41,380 nt of DNA from Candidatus Falkowbacteria bacterium (GCA_043811275.1 JBDRNG010000005.1:1-41380), one strand, 5' to 3'. Shown: positions 27,582 to 32,228, counted from the stretch's first letter. Translations and numbers: made by a program. The notes: generated by a model not told the origin, from the letters alone.

Positions 27582-28007
27582 TTGAATAAAAAGCTAATTA
27601 AAGCTAATTAAAATTAGATCAAATATATTTATTGCAATTTCAACCCTGTTAAATATCCTATAGATATTACAGGGTAAAAATCTTGTTAGATATTATTTGC
27701 AACTTTTAACAAGATTAATTCCGTAAAACGGAATAAATCCCGTAAATCTTAACGGGATAAACTTTATGGATATAAAATCTGTAAGGTAAAGAGTAATTTA
27801 AGGGTGTATGGTGAATGCCTTGACATTAAGAGACGATGAAGGACGTAGCAGCCTGCGATAAGCCTCGCTTAGGTGGCAAGCAACCTTTGAAGCGGGGATT
27901 TCCGAATGGGGAAACCCACTCTGTTGAAGACAGAGTATCCTGACATACGTCAGGATGAGTACCCGGGGAATTGAAACATCTTAGTACCCGGAGGAAAAGA
28001 AAAAAAT

Positions 28008-28122
28008 GCTTTGCAATTTTACATTTGACATTTAACCACGCACTCACTATGTGAAGCGTGGTAAACTTTTGACTTTTAACCTTAAGTTGATTGTCAACTG
28101 TCAAGTGTAAAATTTGCGAAGC
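28008..28122 (+). other. 23S insertion 1: about 115-nt hairpin roughly 220 nt from the 5-prime end
   Basis: It lies between ggaaaagaaa and attccgtaagtagtggcgagcgaa, which are only about 10 nt apart in E. coli. The stem is gctttgcaattttaca/tgtaaaatttgcgaagc. Confidence 0.75.
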
Positions 28123-28554
28123 TTATTCCGTAAGTAGTGGCGAGCGAAAGCGGATCAGCCTAAACTTTATAGACCGCGTTTTTATTTTGGCTTCGGCTAA
28201 TTTGAGAACAGAAGGACCCAAGTCCATATGTCTATAGGGTGTTATAAGATTTTTATATTTATTGCTTGGATTCAATAAGGTAGAGACAAAATTTATAATT
28301 TCTAATTGAACGGTCTGGAAAGGCCGGCCAAAGATGGTGATAGCCCAGTAAGTGAAAGAAATTATAACTCTACGATAAAAATTCTTAAGTAAGGCGGGAC
28401 TCGAGAAATCCCGTTTGAAGTTGGGTCGACTATGATCCAAGGCTAAATACTCTTAATGATCGATAGTGAACTAGTACCGTGAGGGAAAGGTGAAAAGCAT
28501 CCCGGGAGGGAGGTGAAATAGTACCTGAAACCATATACTTACAAAGAGTAGGAG

Positions 28555-28659
28555 CTTCGCTAACGCTTCGCTAACATTTAACAATTAACATTTAACATTT
28601 GACAAAGATAGTCAGGTGTCAAGTGTCATAAGTTAAGTGTTCACGGAGCGATAGCGGAG
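28555..28659 (+). other. 23S insertion 2: extended helix-25-region hairpin (about 105 nt)
   Basis: It lies between cctgaaacc...agtaggagc and gtgactgcgtgcc. The arms carry aacatttaac / gtcaggtgtcaagtgtca motifs. Confidence 0.75.
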
Positions 28660-29290
28660 TGACTGCGTGCCTATTGAAGAATGAGCCAACGAGTTGCTTC
28701 TATGTGGCTTACATAAATCTCGTTTTGGGAGATATGTGTAGTGAAAGCGAGGGTTAACCGCCCGTATTCTTACTTTATGTAAGATAGTCGCATGGAGCAG
28801 ACCCGAAGCCGAGTGATCTAGCCATGGCCAGGTTGAATGTCGTCGAAAGACGACAGGAGGACCGAACCCACTGATCGTGCAACATCAGGGGATGAGCTGT
28901 GGTTAGCGGAGAAATTCCAATCGAACTCGGCAATAGCTGGTTCTCCTCGAAATAGCTTTAGGGCTAGCCTCGGATGCTGACTACAGGGGGTAGAGCACTG
29001 GATAAGAGTTGGGTCTTCGGATACCATTCTTAATCAAACTCCGAATACCTGTAGGTGTAATCCGGGAGTTAGACTATGGGGGCTAAGCTCCATTAGTCAA
29101 AAGGGAAACAGCCCAGATCACCAATTAAGGTCCCTAAATTCATGCTAAGTGTGAAAGGTGGTGTCGCGACTGCGACAACTAGGAGGTTGGCTTAGAAGCA
29201 GCCATCCTTTAAAGAAAGCGTAACAGCTCACTAGTCTAGTTACCGCGCGCCGAAAATGTAACGGGGCTAAGCATGATACCGAAATTGTGA

Positions 29291-29454
29291 ACCGCACACA
29301 GTGCGGAAATCCCAAATAATAAATTCCAAATTCCAAAGAAATTCTAAATAATAGATTATAAATCCAAAAGTCGACTTTATAATTTTGACTTTATAATTTG
29401 ATATTTCTTTGTTATTTGGTGCTTGAAATTTGGAATTTCCGCACTGCGTGCGGT
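29291..29454 (+). other. 23S insertion 3: helix-45-region hairpin (about 164 nt) with family A AT-rich arms
   Basis: It lies between ggggctaagcatgataccgaaattgtga and ggtagaggagcattc. The basal stem is ccgcacacagtgcgg.../...ccgcactgcgtgcgg. Confidence 0.8.
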
Positions 29455-29994
29455 GGTAGAGGAGCATTCTGTATTTATTGAAGCTATCTTGTGAGAGATA
29501 GTGGAAAGTACAGAAGAGAGAATGTTGGCATAAGTAGCAAAAAGGCGGGTGAGAACCCCGCCCACCGAAAGCCTAAGGGTTCCTGGGCAACGTAAATCGG
29601 CCCAGGGTTAGTCGGTCCTAAGGTGAGTCTAGTGTAATGCTAGGGTAGCCGATGGATGATGCCGTTAATATTCGGCAACTACTATTGTATTTCAATGGAG
29701 TGACGCATTAGCGATGTTTGAGCGTTCTATGGTATGGACGTTGCTACTGGCGTCTGGCTGTTCCAGGTAAATCCGGAACACTTTTAGCCAGATAAAAGTG
29801 GCAGAAGTTGAAGCCTTGTGCGGAAGCAATTCAAGTTGAACTGGTGCCTAGAAAAGCTTCTAGAGCTAATGCAATAGTAACCGTACCGTAAACCGACACA
29901 GGTAGGCGAGGCGAGAAGCCTCAGGTGCACGAGAGAACCTTCGTTTAGGAACTCGGCAAAACAGCGGTCGTAATTTCGAGATAAGGCCTGCCTG

Positions 29995-30160
29995 CCGATG
30001 CGTAGCATCGGAAATTTCAAAATCCAAAATCCAAATAACAAATAAACTCTAAATAATAAATTATAAATTTCAAAATTATCTTTATAATTTAAAGTTTAGA
30101 ATTTAAAATTTGTTTGTTATTTGTTATTTGGTGCTTGTAATTTCCGCTGCTATGCAGCGG
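29995..30160 (+). other. 23S insertion 4: hairpin in the variable helix-63 region (about 166 nt)
   Basis: It lies between ggaactcggcaaa...gataaggcctgcctg and tgggtcgcagctaacgaccccgagtgactgtttatcaaaaacacag. Confidence 0.7.
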
Positions 30161-30281
30161 TGGGTCGCAGCTAACGACCCCGAGTGACTGTTTATCAAAA
30201 ACACAGCTCCCTGCTAACTCATAAGAGGATGTATAGGGGGTGACGCCTGGCCAGTGTCCGAACGTTAAGGGGAAGGGTCAA

Positions 30282-30444
30282 CTGTGTATAGCACAGAAAT
30301 TCCAAATCCCAAATAACAAAAAACAAATAAATTCTAAATCACAAATTCAAAATTTCAAAGAAAGAGTTTTGAATTTAGTGCTTGAAATTTTAAATTTGTT
30401 TGTTATTTGGTGCTTGTATTTTGGATTTTCCGTGCTGTGCACGG
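30282..30444 (+). other. 23S insertion 5: hairpin at the tip of the helix about 40 nt 5-prime of H69 (probably H68), about 163 nt
   Basis: It replaces the short loop between gttaagg..gggtcaa and tgaagcttt...ggccgtaactataacgg. Confidence 0.7.
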
Positions 30445-30699
30445 TGAAGCTTTGAACTGAAGCGCGGATGAACGCCGGCCGTAACTATAACGGTCCTAAG
30501 GTAGCGAAATTCCTTGACGGGTAAGTTCCGTCCTGCACGAATGGCGTAACAACTTGGGGACTGTCTCAACGAAGGACTCGGCGAAATTGCAAGGCGAGTA
30601 AAGATGCTCGCTACCCACAGCCGGACGAAAAGACCCCGTGAAGCTTTACTACAGCTTGATATTGTATTTTGATATGCTCTGTTCAGCATAGGTGGGAGA

Positions 30700-30903
30700 C
30701 TGTGCGCAGCACAGAAATTCTAAAGAGTTTTTAAACTCAAATACCAAAGCACAAAATTCAAAATAAATTAAAATAATAAAATTTAAATGATCATCCCGAG
30801 TGTTCGGGATTGAACATTTAATATTTGAATTCTAATATTGTTTTGAGTTTTGAGTTTAGGATTTTGAGCTTGAGATAATTTGGAATTTCCGTGCTGTGCG
30901 CAG
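30700..30903 (+). other. 23S insertion 6: about 200-nt hairpin occupying the L1-stalk (H76-78) region
   Basis: It lies between ataggtgggaga and ttgccagtgagataccaccc. The apex carries tcccgagtgttcggga. Confidence 0.7.
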
Positions 30904-31339
30904 TTGCCAGTGAGATACCACCCTTAGTCTATTAGAATACTTACCTCCCTCCGTTATCCGGAGAAGGGACAGTATCTGGTGGGTAGTTTGTCTGGGGCGG
31001 ATGCCTCCCAAAATGTAACGGAGGCGTTTACAAAGGTTGGCTATCCCGGGATGGAAACCCGGGAGATAGTGTAAAGGCATAAGCCAGCTTTACTGCGAGA
31101 CCTGCAAGTCAAGCAGTTGCGAAAGCAGAACTTAGTGATCCGACCGTCCAATATAGGATGGCGGAAGCTCAACGGATAAAAGCTACTCCGGGGATAACAG
31201 GCTAGTCCTTTCCAAGAGTTCACATCGACGAAAGGGCTCGGCACCTCGATGTCGGCTCGTCTCATCCTGGGGCTGAAGAAGGTCCCAAGGGTTTGGCTGT
31301 TCGCCAATTAAAGAGGCACGCGAGCTGGGTTCAGACCGT

Positions 31340-31751
31340 CAAGTAATTGAAGATTTATGATTTTAGATTTATGATTTCTTCAATTTTTTGACAATCTGAA
31401 CCCTTAAAGACAATTACGGCGGCGTTTAGCAGTAATGCTAAATGTAAAGCTAACTTATATCGGTAGAATCCTAAAAATGTGATGAGAAATCACAAAGCTC
31501 TAATCTCTAAATCCAAAACAAATTCAAATAATAAAATTTAAAATACGGCGTTTTTGAACATTATAAATTTGAATTTTGATATTATTTTGAGTTTAGGATT
31601 TATGATTTTGAGTTTTTATAAATATTAGGATAATACCGAGGGAATCCTTAATTTAAGATATTAAGGAGCCCGTAGAGACTAAACGTTAGCCTCCCGAAGC
31701 ATTTCGGGATGAAGTTATAGTCCATACACCTGGTAACAGGTGAGTAATATG
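31340..31751 (+). ncRNA. ORF-less group I intron in 23S domain V, at the site equivalent to the I-CreI / Cr.LSU homing site
   Basis: It interrupts gaccgu|cguaagacaggucgg. The 5-prime exon can end in U and the intron in G. R-like element guAGAGACUAAAc at 31672-31684, S-like element gAAGuUAUAGUCC at 31711-31723. P3 is gctaac/gttagc, P4 is tcggta/taccga, P8 is tcccgaa/ttcggga, and P9 is cacctg-GTAA-caggtg. Confidence 0.75.
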
Positions 31752-32228
31752 CGTAAGACAGGTCGGTCTCCTATCCGCTGTGGGCGTTGAAATTTGAGAA
31801 GATCTTTCCCTAGTACGAGAGGACCGGGAAGGATAAACCTCTGGTGTACCAGTTGTTCTACCAAGGGCATTGCTGGGTAGCCACGTTTAGTTAGGATAAG
31901 TGCTGAAAGCATATAAGCACGAAGCCGTCTTCAAGATTAGATTTCGTAGGATCGTCAGAGACTATGACGTTGATAGGCCCTATGTGTAAGCGCAGTAATG
32001 CGTTAAGCAGAGGGGCACTAATAATCCATTTTACTCTTTACCTTTTAGGTTTTATACACTGAGTCAATAGATATATTTAGAAATATTTCTATAATTACTT
32101 TTTTTAGTTAAAAATAAATAGAATACACAATCTTGGTGCTTCTTGTCCCGTCATTCAACGGGATAAACTCCGTGGTATTTTGTCATAAAGGCGAAATTAA
32201 AGTAGCGCATTAAAATTAAGTGTAAAAT

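What the first reader, a model, noticed from the sequence alone, without database searches (positions are those of the whole stretch)
27785..32042. 23S rRNA gene expanded to about 4.26 kb by six long hairpin insertions that share one terminal-repeat architecture
Conserved 23S blocks are all present. They are separated by six 100-200-nt inserts at 28008-28122, 28555-28659, 29291-29454, 29995-30160, 30282-30444 and 30700-30903. Four of them (29291, 29995, 30282, 30700) share nearly the same ends: GCRCRGAAATTCCAAA ... TTTGGAATTTCCGYGC. Their long AT-rich arms have the same composition as the intergenic hairpin elements at 4641-4772 and 18567-18708. Two sites correspond to the classical helix-25 and helix-45 intervening-sequence positions known from Salmonella, Leptospira and others, where RNase III excises the IVS and fragments the rRNA. 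The pattern looks like one mobile hairpin element repeatedly colonising solvent-exposed rRNA helices. I cannot tell from DNA whether the inserts are excised (fragmented 23S) or retained as bacterial expansion segments.
Basis: partly seen in the sequence, partly recalled or inferred. Interest (0 to 1): 0.8.

Follow-up and report, generated by a model that had tools for sequence, protein, structure and literature searches.

The report
Copy-and-paste hairpin cassettes in 23S rRNA
The single large-subunit rRNA gene of this tiny uncultured bacterium (Candidatus Falkowbacteria) carries six long hairpin inserts plus a self-splicing intron, and the hairpins belong to families of palindromic cassettes that copy themselves between helix tips of structured-RNA genes across this bacterial radiation.

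Summary
Window 27788-32041 is a full-length, colinear bacterial 23S gene of 4254 nt. All six hairpin inserts lie at the stated coordinates. They map to E. coli ~223-232, H25, H45, H63, H68 and H78.

- a 412-nt ORF-less group I intron at E. coli 2593 (31340-31751), which carries the same AT-rich hairpin in a peripheral loop
- a ~118-nt expansion at E. coli ~270-290 that is universal in this clade

The organism is a CPR bacterium (Falkowbacteria).

Relatives show patchy presence and absence at the same helices. Copies at different helices of one gene can be near-identical (95-98%). The window's "class A" ends recur at about 13 or more 23S sites, in 23S leaders, and once in P12 of an RNase P RNA gene. 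Those ends read CCGTGC-NNN-GCACGG-AAAT ... ATTTCC-GCGC-NNN-GCGCGG. H25 belongs to a second "class B" family.

Best reading: these are non-autonomous palindromic cassettes that spread between helix tips. They are most likely cut out by RNase III, which is encoded directly upstream, leaving a fragmented 23S. Excision versus retention remains untested.

CPR rRNA insertions are already known. The family structure and the evidence for mobility appear not to have been described.

The parts
27788..32041 (+). 23S rRNA gene, 4254 nt, colinear with the bacterial LSU model
   Evidence: RF02541, 2330.9 bits, model 1-2925. 69% identity to E. coli over aligned columns.
28003..28124 (+). Hairpin insert at the small hairpin at Ec ~223-232 (helix 12 by my recollection of the standard numbering). 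Closing stem is GCTTTGC/GCGAAGC, which is class-B-like.
   Evidence: 44 pairs, -50.5 kcal/mol. Length at this site in relatives ranges from 0 to 154 nt. L004 carries a 99% identical copy.
28162..28302 (+). Clade-wide expansion of ~118 nt at Ec 269-292 (H14-H18 region). Not part of the mobile set.
   Evidence: Present at 109-133 nt in nearly all ~28 relatives' 23S genes examined.
28556..28658 (+). H25 hairpin insert, class B termini (GCTTCGCTAACGC ... GGAGCGATAGCGGAG)
   Evidence: The same termini occur in L022 H63/H68 and L107 H25.
29290..29454 (+). H45 hairpin insert, class A cassette (CCGCAC-ACA-GTGCGG-AAAT ... ATTTCC-GCAC-TGC-GTGCGG)
29995..30162 (+). H63 hairpin insert, class A variant whose terminal palindromes are 7 bp long
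30282..30444 (+). H68-tip hairpin insert, class A cassette
   Evidence: L177 has a class A copy at the same site.
30700..30903 (+). H78 hairpin insert, class A cassette, 88 predicted pairs
   Evidence: L145 has a class A copy at the same site.
31340..31751 (+). ORF-less group I intron at Ec 2593. The 5' exon ends in U and the intron ends in G.
   Evidence: RF00028, 37.2 bits, E=6.5e-8, below the gathering score of 50. Splice junctions were read from the sequence and the E. coli alignment.
31487..31625 (+). AT-rich hairpin of the same core family, sitting as a large unaligned insertion inside a hairpin of the intron (about model position 80, which I take to be the P5 region)
   Evidence: alignment. 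z=23 against the H78 core..
26390..27085 (+). rnc, class 1 RNase III with dsRBD, directly upstream of the 23S gene on the same strand
   Evidence: Pfam PF14622, PF00636 and PF00035. NERLEFLGD motif. rnc lies upstream of the 23S in ~30 relatives.
4639..4773 (.). Intergenic AT-rich hairpin of the same core family, without GC-rich termini
18566..18713 (.). Intergenic AT-rich hairpin of the same core family, immediately after a stop codon
   Evidence: One search gives z=17.8 against the H78 core.
4327..4408 (.). Single arm of the core family inside the trmD ORF. It encodes a ~14-aa low-complexity loop.
   Evidence: (I4).

Best explanation
The six inserts are copies of non-autonomous palindromic hairpin cassettes.

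Anatomy. A class A cassette has two GC-rich 15-nt ends. Each end is itself a palindrome of 6+3+6 bases: CCGTGC-NNN-GCACGG at the 5' side and CCGCGC-NNN-GCGCGG at the 3' side. The ends flank a 100-170-nt AT-rich imperfect hairpin. That hairpin is built from 7-8-nt repeats, (GAAATYC)n on one arm and the complement on the other. Class B has different ends (GCTTCGCTWWCGC... or GTGYCTCACTWWCGTTCGRCAC...).

DNA level. The cassettes are copied between the tips of surface helices of highly transcribed structured-RNA genes. Targets seen are the 23S rRNA, its leader, and RNase P RNA. Their AT-rich cores are homogenised within a genome with that genome's intergenic hairpins. Only insertions that stack coaxially on a dispensable helix tip survive, because the organism appears to have one 23S gene.

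RNA level. Each cassette prolongs its host helix as a 45-88-bp duplex. I infer that RNase III, encoded immediately upstream, cuts this duplex. That would discard the AT-rich core and leave the GC-rich base as a clamp. The mature 23S would then be up to seven non-covalently held fragments. The group I intron at 2593 would splice itself out and religate.

Shown: anatomy, family relationships, site spectrum, presence/absence polymorphism, pairing statistics.
Inferred: the copying mechanism (no enzyme identified), RNase III cleavage, and fragmentation.
For: Structure:
- Every insert is a single long hairpin.
- The extended duplex of the termini is 91.6% paired. The central triplets of the two ends covary (AU/GC/GU/UA at columns 11-54; 0 of 500 shuffles reach the observed values).

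Mobility or copying:
- Presence and absence vary helix by helix among relatives. Their 23S genes range from about 3.0 to 4.55 kb.
- Insert-free relatives have minimal capped helices at the same places.
- Similarity clusters by genome rather than by helix: 95.5% over 178 nt, 98% over 106 nt, 90% over 147 nt.
- Class A ends from the window match L013 copies at other helices.
- A metagenome scan with the 3' end gave 80 listed loci (100 matching stretches). About 27 of those are CPR 23S contigs.
- A regex scan of 1.78 Mb of held loci found 55 paired elements, against 0 in shuffled sequence.
- These map to the 23S leader, Ec ~130-190, ~228, ~270-305, H25, ~645-669, the H38 region, ~1111-1120, H45, ~1596, H68, H78 and H98, and to P12 of an RNase P RNA gene.
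- Cores are significantly similar to intergenic and intronic hairpins of the same genome.

Excision:
- H25 and H45 are the classical RNase III IVS sites (PMC11270868, PMC4990558).
- rnc is intact and adjacent.
- CPR rRNA insertions are reported to be absent from transcripts (Brown 2015, as cited in PMC11270868 and PMC9297842).
- Cassettes also sit in leaders, which are not part of the mature rRNA.
Against: - No RNA data are available, so cleavage is not shown.
- No transposase, recombinase or target-site duplication was found. The only IS in the window (IS5-like) has unrelated 28-nt inverted repeats.
- The flanks of class A copies share no target motif.
- H68, the H38 region, H42 and RNase P P12 are not known IVS sites. 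Fragmentation there, seven pieces in all, would be extreme.
- Each terminus is independently palindromic, and that palindromy is kept by within-arm compensatory changes (98% paired). Those same changes put A.C and U.G into the extended duplex. Simple RNase III substrate selection does not explain this.
- The sense strand is only modestly more stable than the antisense (25 of 37 elements, p=0.005).
Confidence: 0.6

Rival explanations
1. The hairpins are retained in the mature ribosome as giant bacterial expansion segments. After intron removal the 23S would be about 3.84 kb, with six protruding helices of 45-88 bp, similar to the 'tentacles' of eukaryotic or Asgard ribosomes.
For: - Four sites coincide with insertion-tolerant E. 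coli positions that overlap eukaryotic expansion segments: H25/ES7, H45/ES15, H63/ES27 and H78/ES30 (PMC2441807).
- The RNA-sense fold is on average more stable than the antisense fold.
- The copy in RNase P P12 is easier to picture as a retained extension than as a split ribozyme.
- The A.C and U.G pairs conserved in the basal duplex could act against RNase III cleavage. This last point is my inference.
Against: - Long near-perfect duplexes are canonical RNase III substrates, and the enzyme is present and adjacent.
- All characterised bacterial inserts at H25 and H45 are excised (PMC4990558, PMC11270868).
- CPR insertions are reported to be removed from transcripts (PMC11270868).
- The cores are AT-rich, evolve fast and are shared with intergenic hairpins. 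That is atypical of functional ribosomal structure.
- Cassettes also occur in leaders.
- H68 lies at the subunit interface and was not among the permissive sites in E. coli.
Confidence: 0.25
2. There is no mobility. Each helix tip grew in place by replication slippage of short repeats. The shared ends are convergent, selected as the best substrate for a processing enzyme or the best clamp.
For: - The arms are visibly tandem repeats of 7-8 nt, for example the L038 H25 (TTTTCAAT)n arm.
- Cores differ between genomes.
- No transposase and no target-site duplication was found.
Against: - Copies at different helices of one gene are identical over 130 nt or 95-98% identical over longer spans. Convergence cannot produce that.
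- The terminal module is conserved across many genomes and about 13 or more sites, including the non-rRNA RNase P gene.
- The central triplets of the two ends covary as a unit.
Confidence: 0.08
3. The expanded gene is an assembly artefact, with repeats collapsed or chimerically joined in a metagenome contig.
For: Contigs from close relatives (L002/L009, L003, L004) all break inside the 23S gene, near inserts.
Against: - The longest exact repeat among the inserts is 22 nt.
- All 2925 model positions are present once and in order.
- Independent assemblies from other samples reproduce the first three inserts at 97-99% identity.
- Many unrelated contigs show the same architecture.
Confidence: 0.02

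Closest known systems
Bacterial 23S rRNA intervening sequences (IVS) of Salmonella, Leptospira, Campylobacter and Coxiella, excised by RNase III
   Same: - They are stem-loop inserts that replace the tips of H25 and H45.
- They are distributed sporadically among close relatives.
- They are suspected to be mobile.
- The host encodes RNase III.
(PMC4990558, PMC2801512, PMC11270868)
   Different: - This gene has six sites, including H63, H68, H78 and Ec~228. Related contigs add many more sites.
- Two cassette families with conserved palindromic termini are shared across a whole radiation.
- There are near-identical paralogous copies within a single gene.
- None of the inserts contains an ORF.
- Excision was not tested here.
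CPR rRNA 'insertion sequences' (Brown 2015; Tsurumaki 2022 and 2024)
   Same: - The organism group is the same.
- The phenomenon is the same: 82% of CPR 23S genes carry inserts of at least 100 bp, with up to 16 per gene.
- The 2593 intron site is on their list.
- They guessed that short non-intron inserts at two sites are IVS.
(PMC11270868)
   Different: - Those surveys left the short ORF-less inserts 'uncharacterized'.
- The main text of the 2024 paper does not contain the words 'hairpin' or 'palindrom'.
- The terminal modules, the copying between helices, the kinship with intergenic hairpins and the RNase P copy do not appear in the two papers I searched.
Palindromic mobile elements in organelle rRNA genes (yeast mitochondrial GC clusters; double-hairpin and hairpin repeats in fungal, algal and sponge mtDNA) and Rickettsia palindromic elements
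   Same: These are short non-autonomous palindromes that spread within a reduced genome. They survive inside variable loops of rRNA genes, and even in-frame inside protein genes. Compare the trmD arm here. (PMC4478555 for GC clusters; the rest is from my own knowledge.)
   Different: - I know of no sequence relationship.
- Here the elements are much longer hairpins with distinct doubly palindromic ends.
- The host is a free-standing bacterial lineage.
Bacterial MITEs processed by RNase III (Correia/NEMIS, ERIC) and REP or IS200/IS605-derived palindromic elements
   Same: - They have terminal inverted repeats and are transcribed into hairpins.
- RNase III cleaves Correia hairpins (my own knowledge).
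- Small hairpins at both ends recall the ends of IS200/IS605.
   Different: - There is no target-site duplication.
- There is no shared target motif.
- No cognate transposase was seen.
- Insertion is restricted to helix tips of RNA genes.
Membership is not supported.
Eukaryotic and Asgard rRNA expansion segments
   Same: Four of the sites overlap ES7, ES15, ES27 and ES30 (PMC2441807).
   Different: - Expansion segments are retained and lineage-stable.
- These inserts are polymorphic, paralogous and probably removed.

Membership tests
RNase III-excised 23S rRNA IVS | Insert replaces the tip of a 23S helix (classically H25 or H45) with an extended stem-loop | tested here: met
   H25 and H45, plus four other helix tips.
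RNase III-excised 23S rRNA IVS | Sporadic presence or absence among close relatives | tested here: met
   The same helices carry anywhere from 0 to about 190 nt across ~28 Falkowbacteria-like 23S genes.
RNase III-excised 23S rRNA IVS | Host encodes a functional-looking RNase III | tested here: met
   Catalytic NERLEFLGD motif plus a dsRBD, and the gene is adjacent.
RNase III-excised 23S rRNA IVS | Insert is cut out of the transcript without religation, giving a fragmented 23S | not testable with these tools
   No RNA data were available. Only literature statements for CPR in general (PMC11270868).
CPR rRNA insertion sequences (short, non-intron class) | CPR host; at least 100 bp extra relative to E. 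coli; no intron model hit; no ORF | tested here: met
   Falkowbacteria; sizes; only sub-threshold generic-hairpin hits.
Group I intron (31340-31751) | Match to the catalytic core model at the curated threshold | tested here: inconclusive
   RF00028 scores 37.2 bits against a gathering score of 50, with E=6.5e-8. The model is covered from 1 to 253.
Group I intron (31340-31751) | U at the end of the 5' exon, G at the 3' end of the intron, and a known homing site | tested here: met
   Sequence read. Ec 2593. The site is listed for CPR in PMC11270868.
DDE-type MITE | Target-site duplication, and terminal repeats that match an autonomous IS | tested here: not met
   No duplication or common flank was found. 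The inverted repeats of the IS5-like element are unrelated.
IS200/IS605-derived palindromic element | Subterminal hairpins plus a conserved target tetranucleotide and a TnpA gene in the genome | tested here: inconclusive
   Terminal mini-hairpins are present. There is no conserved flank. No TnpA lies in the 41-kb window. The rest of the genome was not seen.
rRNA expansion segment | Retained in the mature rRNA and stable within the lineage | tested here: not met
   The lineage-stability half fails. Retention itself cannot be tested with these tools.

The most novel reading that the evidence does not exclude
CPR bacteria may harbour a radiation-wide, polarity-specific mobile hairpin cassette that specifically colonises helix tips of structured RNAs (23S rRNA at about 13 or more sites, 23S leaders, RNase P RNA). 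Each of its ends can take either of two forms: it can pair with the other end as a duplex, or it can fold back on itself as a mini-hairpin. This could reflect a dedicated machinery. One version is a dimeric DNA-binding or hairpin-recognising enzyme used for copying. Another is a programmed cleave-and-cap RNA processing step, in which the local mini-hairpins protect the new fragment ends. In the alternative reading, the cassettes are retained and give the largest known bacterial LSU rRNA, with eukaryote-like tentacles.
Probability: 0.25. Interest if true: 0.85.

Novelty: new variant of a known kind. Interest (0 to 1): 0.6.

Why it matters
rRNA insertions in CPR bacteria are usually discussed as introns with homing endonucleases. 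The short ORF-less inserts have been set aside as probable IVS.

This locus and its relatives show that these short inserts form discrete cassette families with conserved ends. The families move between helices of one essential single-copy gene and into RNase P RNA. They also share their cores with intergenic hairpins.

That has three consequences.
- It gives a concrete, searchable sequence signature for a selfish element that lives in the structural periphery of essential RNAs.
- It provides a natural map of which 23S helix tips tolerate 100-200-nt additions or breaks. That map includes H68 and H98.
- It makes a clear prediction: an rRNA extremely fragmented by RNase III, or else giant bacterial expansion segments. 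Any metatranscriptome containing Falkowbacteria can test this.

It also warns annotators and primer designers that CPR 23S genes can exceed 4 kb without any coding insert.

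Tried and rejected
- A sliding-window MFE scan of the whole window did not separate the hairpin family from ordinary sequence. I replaced it with BLAST and regex scans.
- An Rfam E-value scan of the inserts returned only sub-threshold plant miRNA-precursor models. 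That means a generic long hairpin and no known family.
- I looked for a cognate transposase. The only IS in the window (DDE, IS5-like, 8196-9545) has unrelated inverted repeats. No HUH/TnpA, RAYT or homing endonuclease lies in the window.
- I considered A/C-rich-first arm composition as a marker of orientation. I rejected it because a palindrome shows the same pattern on both strands. Polarity is instead defined by the two different terminal palindromes.
- I compared substitution rates in core and inserts between the window and L003. There were too few differences to be informative: 15 of 892 against 10 of 366.
- About two thirds of the metagenome pattern hits were random matches in GC-rich, unrelated contigs and were discarded. 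L083, L146 and L147 are regex false positives.
- I could not obtain RNA-level evidence.

Full report
**What is in the window**

Rfam places a complete bacterial LSU rRNA at 27788-32041 (+). It covers model positions 1-2925 and scores 2330.9 bits. A 5S gene lies at 32230-32344, and there is no 16S gene in the window.

The gene is 4254 nt, against 2904 nt in E. coli. A pairwise MAFFT alignment to E. coli rrlB (L001) lists every insertion:

| Window coordinates | E. coli position | Extra nt |
|---|---|---|
| 28003-28124 | 223-232 | 113 |
| 28162-28302 | 269-292 | 118 |
| 28556-28658 | 540-552 (H25) | 91 |
| 28766-28783 | 652 | 18 |
| 29290-29453 | 1162-1184 (H45) | 142 |
| 30032-30162 | ~1748 (H63) | 131 |
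| 30283-30439 | 1868 (tip of H68) | 157 |
| 30701-30893 | 2129-2149 (H78) | 173 |
| 31340-31751 | 2593 | 412 |

Each folds into a single long hairpin of 44-88 pairs, with MFE between -50 and -92 kcal/mol.

It is an ORF-less group I intron. RF00028 scores 37.2 bits with E=6.5e-8, which is below the gathering score of 50, but the match spans the whole model. The 5' exon ends in U, the intron ends in G, and the ligated exons restore the E. coli sequence GACCGU|CGUAAGACAG. Position 2593 is a listed CPR intron site (PMC11270868). Inside one hairpin of the intron (about model position 80, which I take to be the P5 region) sits another ~135-nt AT-rich hairpin, at 31487-31625.

**Organism and neighbourhood**

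The gene directly upstream of the 23S (26390-27085, +) is RNase III. It has both catalytic-domain Pfam models and a dsRBD, and it carries the NERLEFLGD signature. NusB and RuvB lie further upstream.

The closest RNase III homologues come from Candidatus Falkowbacteria and other Patescibacteria. The window is therefore CPR DNA of about 33% GC.

I fetched 80 loci around rnc homologues from the species-representative genomes. The 23S gene lies downstream of rnc in about 30 of them.

**Comparison with relatives**

Pairwise alignment of each relative's 23S to E. coli gives a clear picture.

- The ~115-nt expansion at Ec ~270-290 is present in nearly all of them. A ~50-nt insertion at Ec 652 is common. 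These are lineage features, not part of the phenomenon.
- The inserts at Ec~228, H25, H45, H63, H68 and H78 are present or absent helix by helix.
  - L007, L028 and L032 have essentially none. Their 23S genes are about 3.0-3.1 kb.
  - L013 (4.55 kb) and L022 (4.0 kb) have most of the same sites occupied.
  - Lengths at a given site range from 0 to about 190 nt.
- In insert-free relatives the same helices are minimal capped hairpins. H78 is GCCTTCGGGC, and H63, H45 and H25 have stems of 6-8 bp. This fits the reported loss of H9 and H63 in CPR 23S rRNA (PMC9297842). The inserts replace the helix tip and stack on what is left of the helix.

**Evidence for copying**

I compared all inserts of 80 nt or more by local alignment. 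They cluster by genome, not by helix.

| Pair | Identity |
|---|---|
| L022 H63 vs H68 | 95.5% over 178 nt, with a 130-nt identical core |
| L013 H25 vs H45 | 98% over 106 nt |
| L013 H12 vs H63 | 90% over 147 nt |
| L022 H25 vs H78 | 85.5% over 193 nt |
| Window H45, H63, H68 (pairwise) | about 80% aligned, 74-76% by BLAST |

Copies at the same helix in different genomes are not detectably similar. Their median score equals background.

Families do cross genomes, but at different helices. Window H68 aligns to L013 H25 at 77% over 146 nt.

Vertical inheritance of six independent helices cannot produce this pattern. It requires copying or gene conversion between helix tips within a gene.

**Two families defined by their ends**

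Class A comprises window H45, H63 (a 7-bp variant), H68 and H78. In RNA sense it reads:

5'-CCGTGC-NNN-GCACGG-AAAT(Y)C(N)AAA ... TTYGG(N)ATTTCC-GCGC-NNN-GCGCGG-3'

Class B includes window H25. It begins GCTTCGCTWWCGC or GTGYCTCACTWWCGTTCGRCAC and ends with the complement. It occurs in L011, L013, L022, L038, L043, L107, L112 and L122 at H12, H25, H63, H68 and H78.

The window's Ec~228 insert has only a B-like closing stem.

**How widespread class A is**

I scanned the metagenome collection with the class A 3' end, RAWTTTCCGYGCTGYGCRCRG. This matched 100 stretches, of which 80 loci were listed. About two thirds of those are chance matches in GC-rich, unrelated DNA. About 27 are AT-rich CPR contigs that carry a 23S gene.

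Block-shuffled sequence gave none. After removing duplicates and four false positives, about 37 distinct copies remain.

They map to the following positions:

- the 23S leader, 25-65 nt before the mature 5' end
- Ec ~130-190
- Ec ~228
- Ec ~270-305
- H25
- Ec ~645-669
- the H38 region
- Ec ~1111-1120
- H45
- Ec ~1596
- H68
- H78
- H98

One copy lies in the P12 hairpin of a bacterial class A RNase P RNA gene. This is L135, RF00010, 138.7 bits, with the insert shown in the alignment.

The cassette is therefore not specific to rRNA. It occupies peripheral hairpin tips of structured RNAs.

**Anatomy of the class A ends**

I aligned the termini of 34 copies and counted pairs for two alternative structures.

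Extended duplex (5' end paired with 3' end):
- It is 91.6% paired.
- The central triplets covary strongly. Columns 11-54 show AU 12, GC 7, GU 6 and UA 6. Columns 13-52 show AU 26, CG 4 and UA 4.
- No shuffle out of 500 reached the observed values.
- However, it contains an A.C mismatch in 25 of 34 copies (columns 16-49) and a U.G pair in 28 of 34 (columns 8-57).

Local 6+3+6 mini-hairpins (each end folded on itself):
- They are 98% paired.
- They are maintained by compensatory changes within each arm. Columns 6-18 show CG 26 and UA 6. Columns 49-57 show CG 26 and UA 5.

Both kinds of pairing are therefore conserved.

The element also has a fixed polarity relative to the host RNA. The CCGTGC/GCACGG end is 5' and the CCGCGC/GCGCGG end is 3', and no reversed case was seen.

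I cannot decide between two explanations for the local palindromes. They may reflect a dimeric or hairpin-recognising DNA enzyme. Or they may be RNA mini-hairpins that cap the new ends after cleavage. I record this as unexplained.

**Relation to the intergenic hairpins**

I trimmed the GC-rich ends and compared the AT-rich cores of the rRNA cassettes with hairpins elsewhere in the window. The comparison set was 4639-4773, 18566-18713 and the intron hairpin. Scores were judged against shuffles that preserve each arm's composition.

| Pair | z-score |
|---|---|
| H78 vs 18566-18713 | 17.8 |
| H78 vs intron hairpin | 23.3 |
| H78 vs 4639-4773 | 12.0 |
| H45 vs 18566-18713 | 14.1 |

Similar AT-rich hairpins lie in intergenic DNA of many relatives, several of them immediately after rnc. 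They lack the GC-rich ends.

The cassette therefore looks composite. It has a radiation-wide terminal module, plus a fast-evolving core that is homogenised within each genome.

**Is it an artefact?**

- The longest exact repeat between any two inserts in the window is 22 nt.
- The gene is colinear with the model.
- Contigs from other samples (L003, L009, L004) reproduce the first three inserts at 97-99% identity.
- Dozens of unrelated contigs show the same design.

Contigs from close relatives do tend to break inside the 23S gene. That is what such repeats do to short-read assemblies.

**Mechanism**

I commit to the following. The inserts are non-autonomous palindromic cassettes that are copied between helix tips. 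Their transcripts extend the host helix into a long duplex. The adjacent RNase III cuts that duplex, leaving a GC-rich clamp and a 23S made of up to seven pieces. The intron at 2593 self-splices.

Support for excision is indirect:
- H25 and H45 are the classical IVS sites (PMC4990558, PMC11270868).
- The duplexes are ideal RNase III substrates.
- CPR insertions are reported to be absent from transcripts (PMC11270868, PMC9297842, both citing Brown 2015).
- Cassettes also occur in leaders.

Points against:
- The number of breaks would be extreme.
- H68 is not an insertion-tolerant site in E. coli. H25, H45, H63 and H78 are (PMC2441807).
- The RNase P copy is easier to picture as retained than as a split ribozyme.
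- The conserved A.C and U.G pairs are unexplained.

I put excision at about 0.6 and retention as expansion segments at about 0.25.

The copying enzyme is unknown. There is no target-site duplication or common flank. The window's only IS has unrelated ends.

**Novelty**

The literature already establishes that CPR rRNA genes are full of insertions. It guesses that short ones at two sites are IVS (PMC11270868). The short ORF-less class was left uncharacterised, and the main text of that paper does not contain the words 'hairpin' or 'palindrom'.

The following appear not to have been described:
- the cassette families
- their conserved doubly palindromic ends
- copying between helices
- the kinship with intergenic hairpins
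- the RNase P copy

I rate this a new variant of a known kind.

Noticed in passing
window 4327-4408 (inside trmD, 3929-4627, - strand): One arm of the AT-rich hairpin family lies in frame inside the TrmD gene. It encodes a ~14-residue low-complexity loop (…YQNSKSKTNLKFKNSNSK…) that is absent from solved TrmD structures. It is 78% complementary to the arm at 4643-4700, just upstream of the trmD start codon. This recalls the Rickettsia palindromic elements found in protein-coding genes.
   Followed up: partly
L135 8810-8975 (Ga0209541_10021507): A class A hairpin cassette is inserted in the P12 hairpin of a bacterial RNase P RNA gene of another CPR bacterium.
   Followed up: yes
L011, L012, L025, L038, L013, L058 (23S helices H25, H63, H68, H78): In relatives that lack long inserts, different helices of the same 23S gene are capped by the same short hairpin, either CCCCGCATTTTGCGGGG or CCCGAGCAATCGGG. 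Short caps may be exchanged between helix tips as well, or they may be footprints of lost cassettes.
   Followed up: no
window 27223-27375: A perfect sigma-70-type promoter (TTGACA, 16-nt spacer, TATAAT) lies at 27223-27250. About 110 nt downstream, at 27358-27375, is a terminator-like hairpin with a T run. Both sit between rnc and the 23S gene. This could be a small transcript or an attenuated rRNA leader.
   Followed up: no
window 32212-32234 / 32339-32361: The 5S rRNA gene is bracketed by a perfectly complementary 23-nt inverted repeat. It extends helix I by about 18 bp beyond the mature ends and is probably a processing stem.
   Followed up: no
window 8196-9545: An IS5-like insertion sequence, with DDE_Tnp_1 and DUF772 domains in the ORF at 8354-9385 (- strand). 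It is bounded by 28-nt inverted repeats that are 93% complementary. Its ends are unrelated to the hairpin cassettes.
   Followed up: partly
window 41074-41231; 21670-21726; 22286-22343: A further hairpin and repeat arms built from the (TTTTCAAT)n unit, the same unit that forms the H25 insert of L038. The copy at 41074-41231 overlaps the start of the DHH-family gene (39910-41082, - strand). The other two lie inside the methyltransferase ORF (21476-22759).
   Followed up: no
window 36363-36422; 15495-15552; 35150-35205: Three GC-richer near-perfect palindromes of unknown role in intergenic DNA. The first has 30-nt arms with 97% complementarity and no spacer. They are not related to the cassette families.
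   Followed up: no
window 932-2648: An AntA/AntB antirepressor-domain protein and a PD-(D/E)XK nuclease lie side by side. These are phage-like or mobile-element-like genes at the left end of the window.
   Followed up: no
L013 Ec1917 (746 nt), L025 Ec1931 (730 nt), L058 Ec1930 (861 nt), L043 Ec~2073-2095 (1416 nt): Relatives carry long inserts, presumably introns, at other known CPR intron sites in the 23S gene. The window has none of these, only the one at 2593.
   Followed up: no
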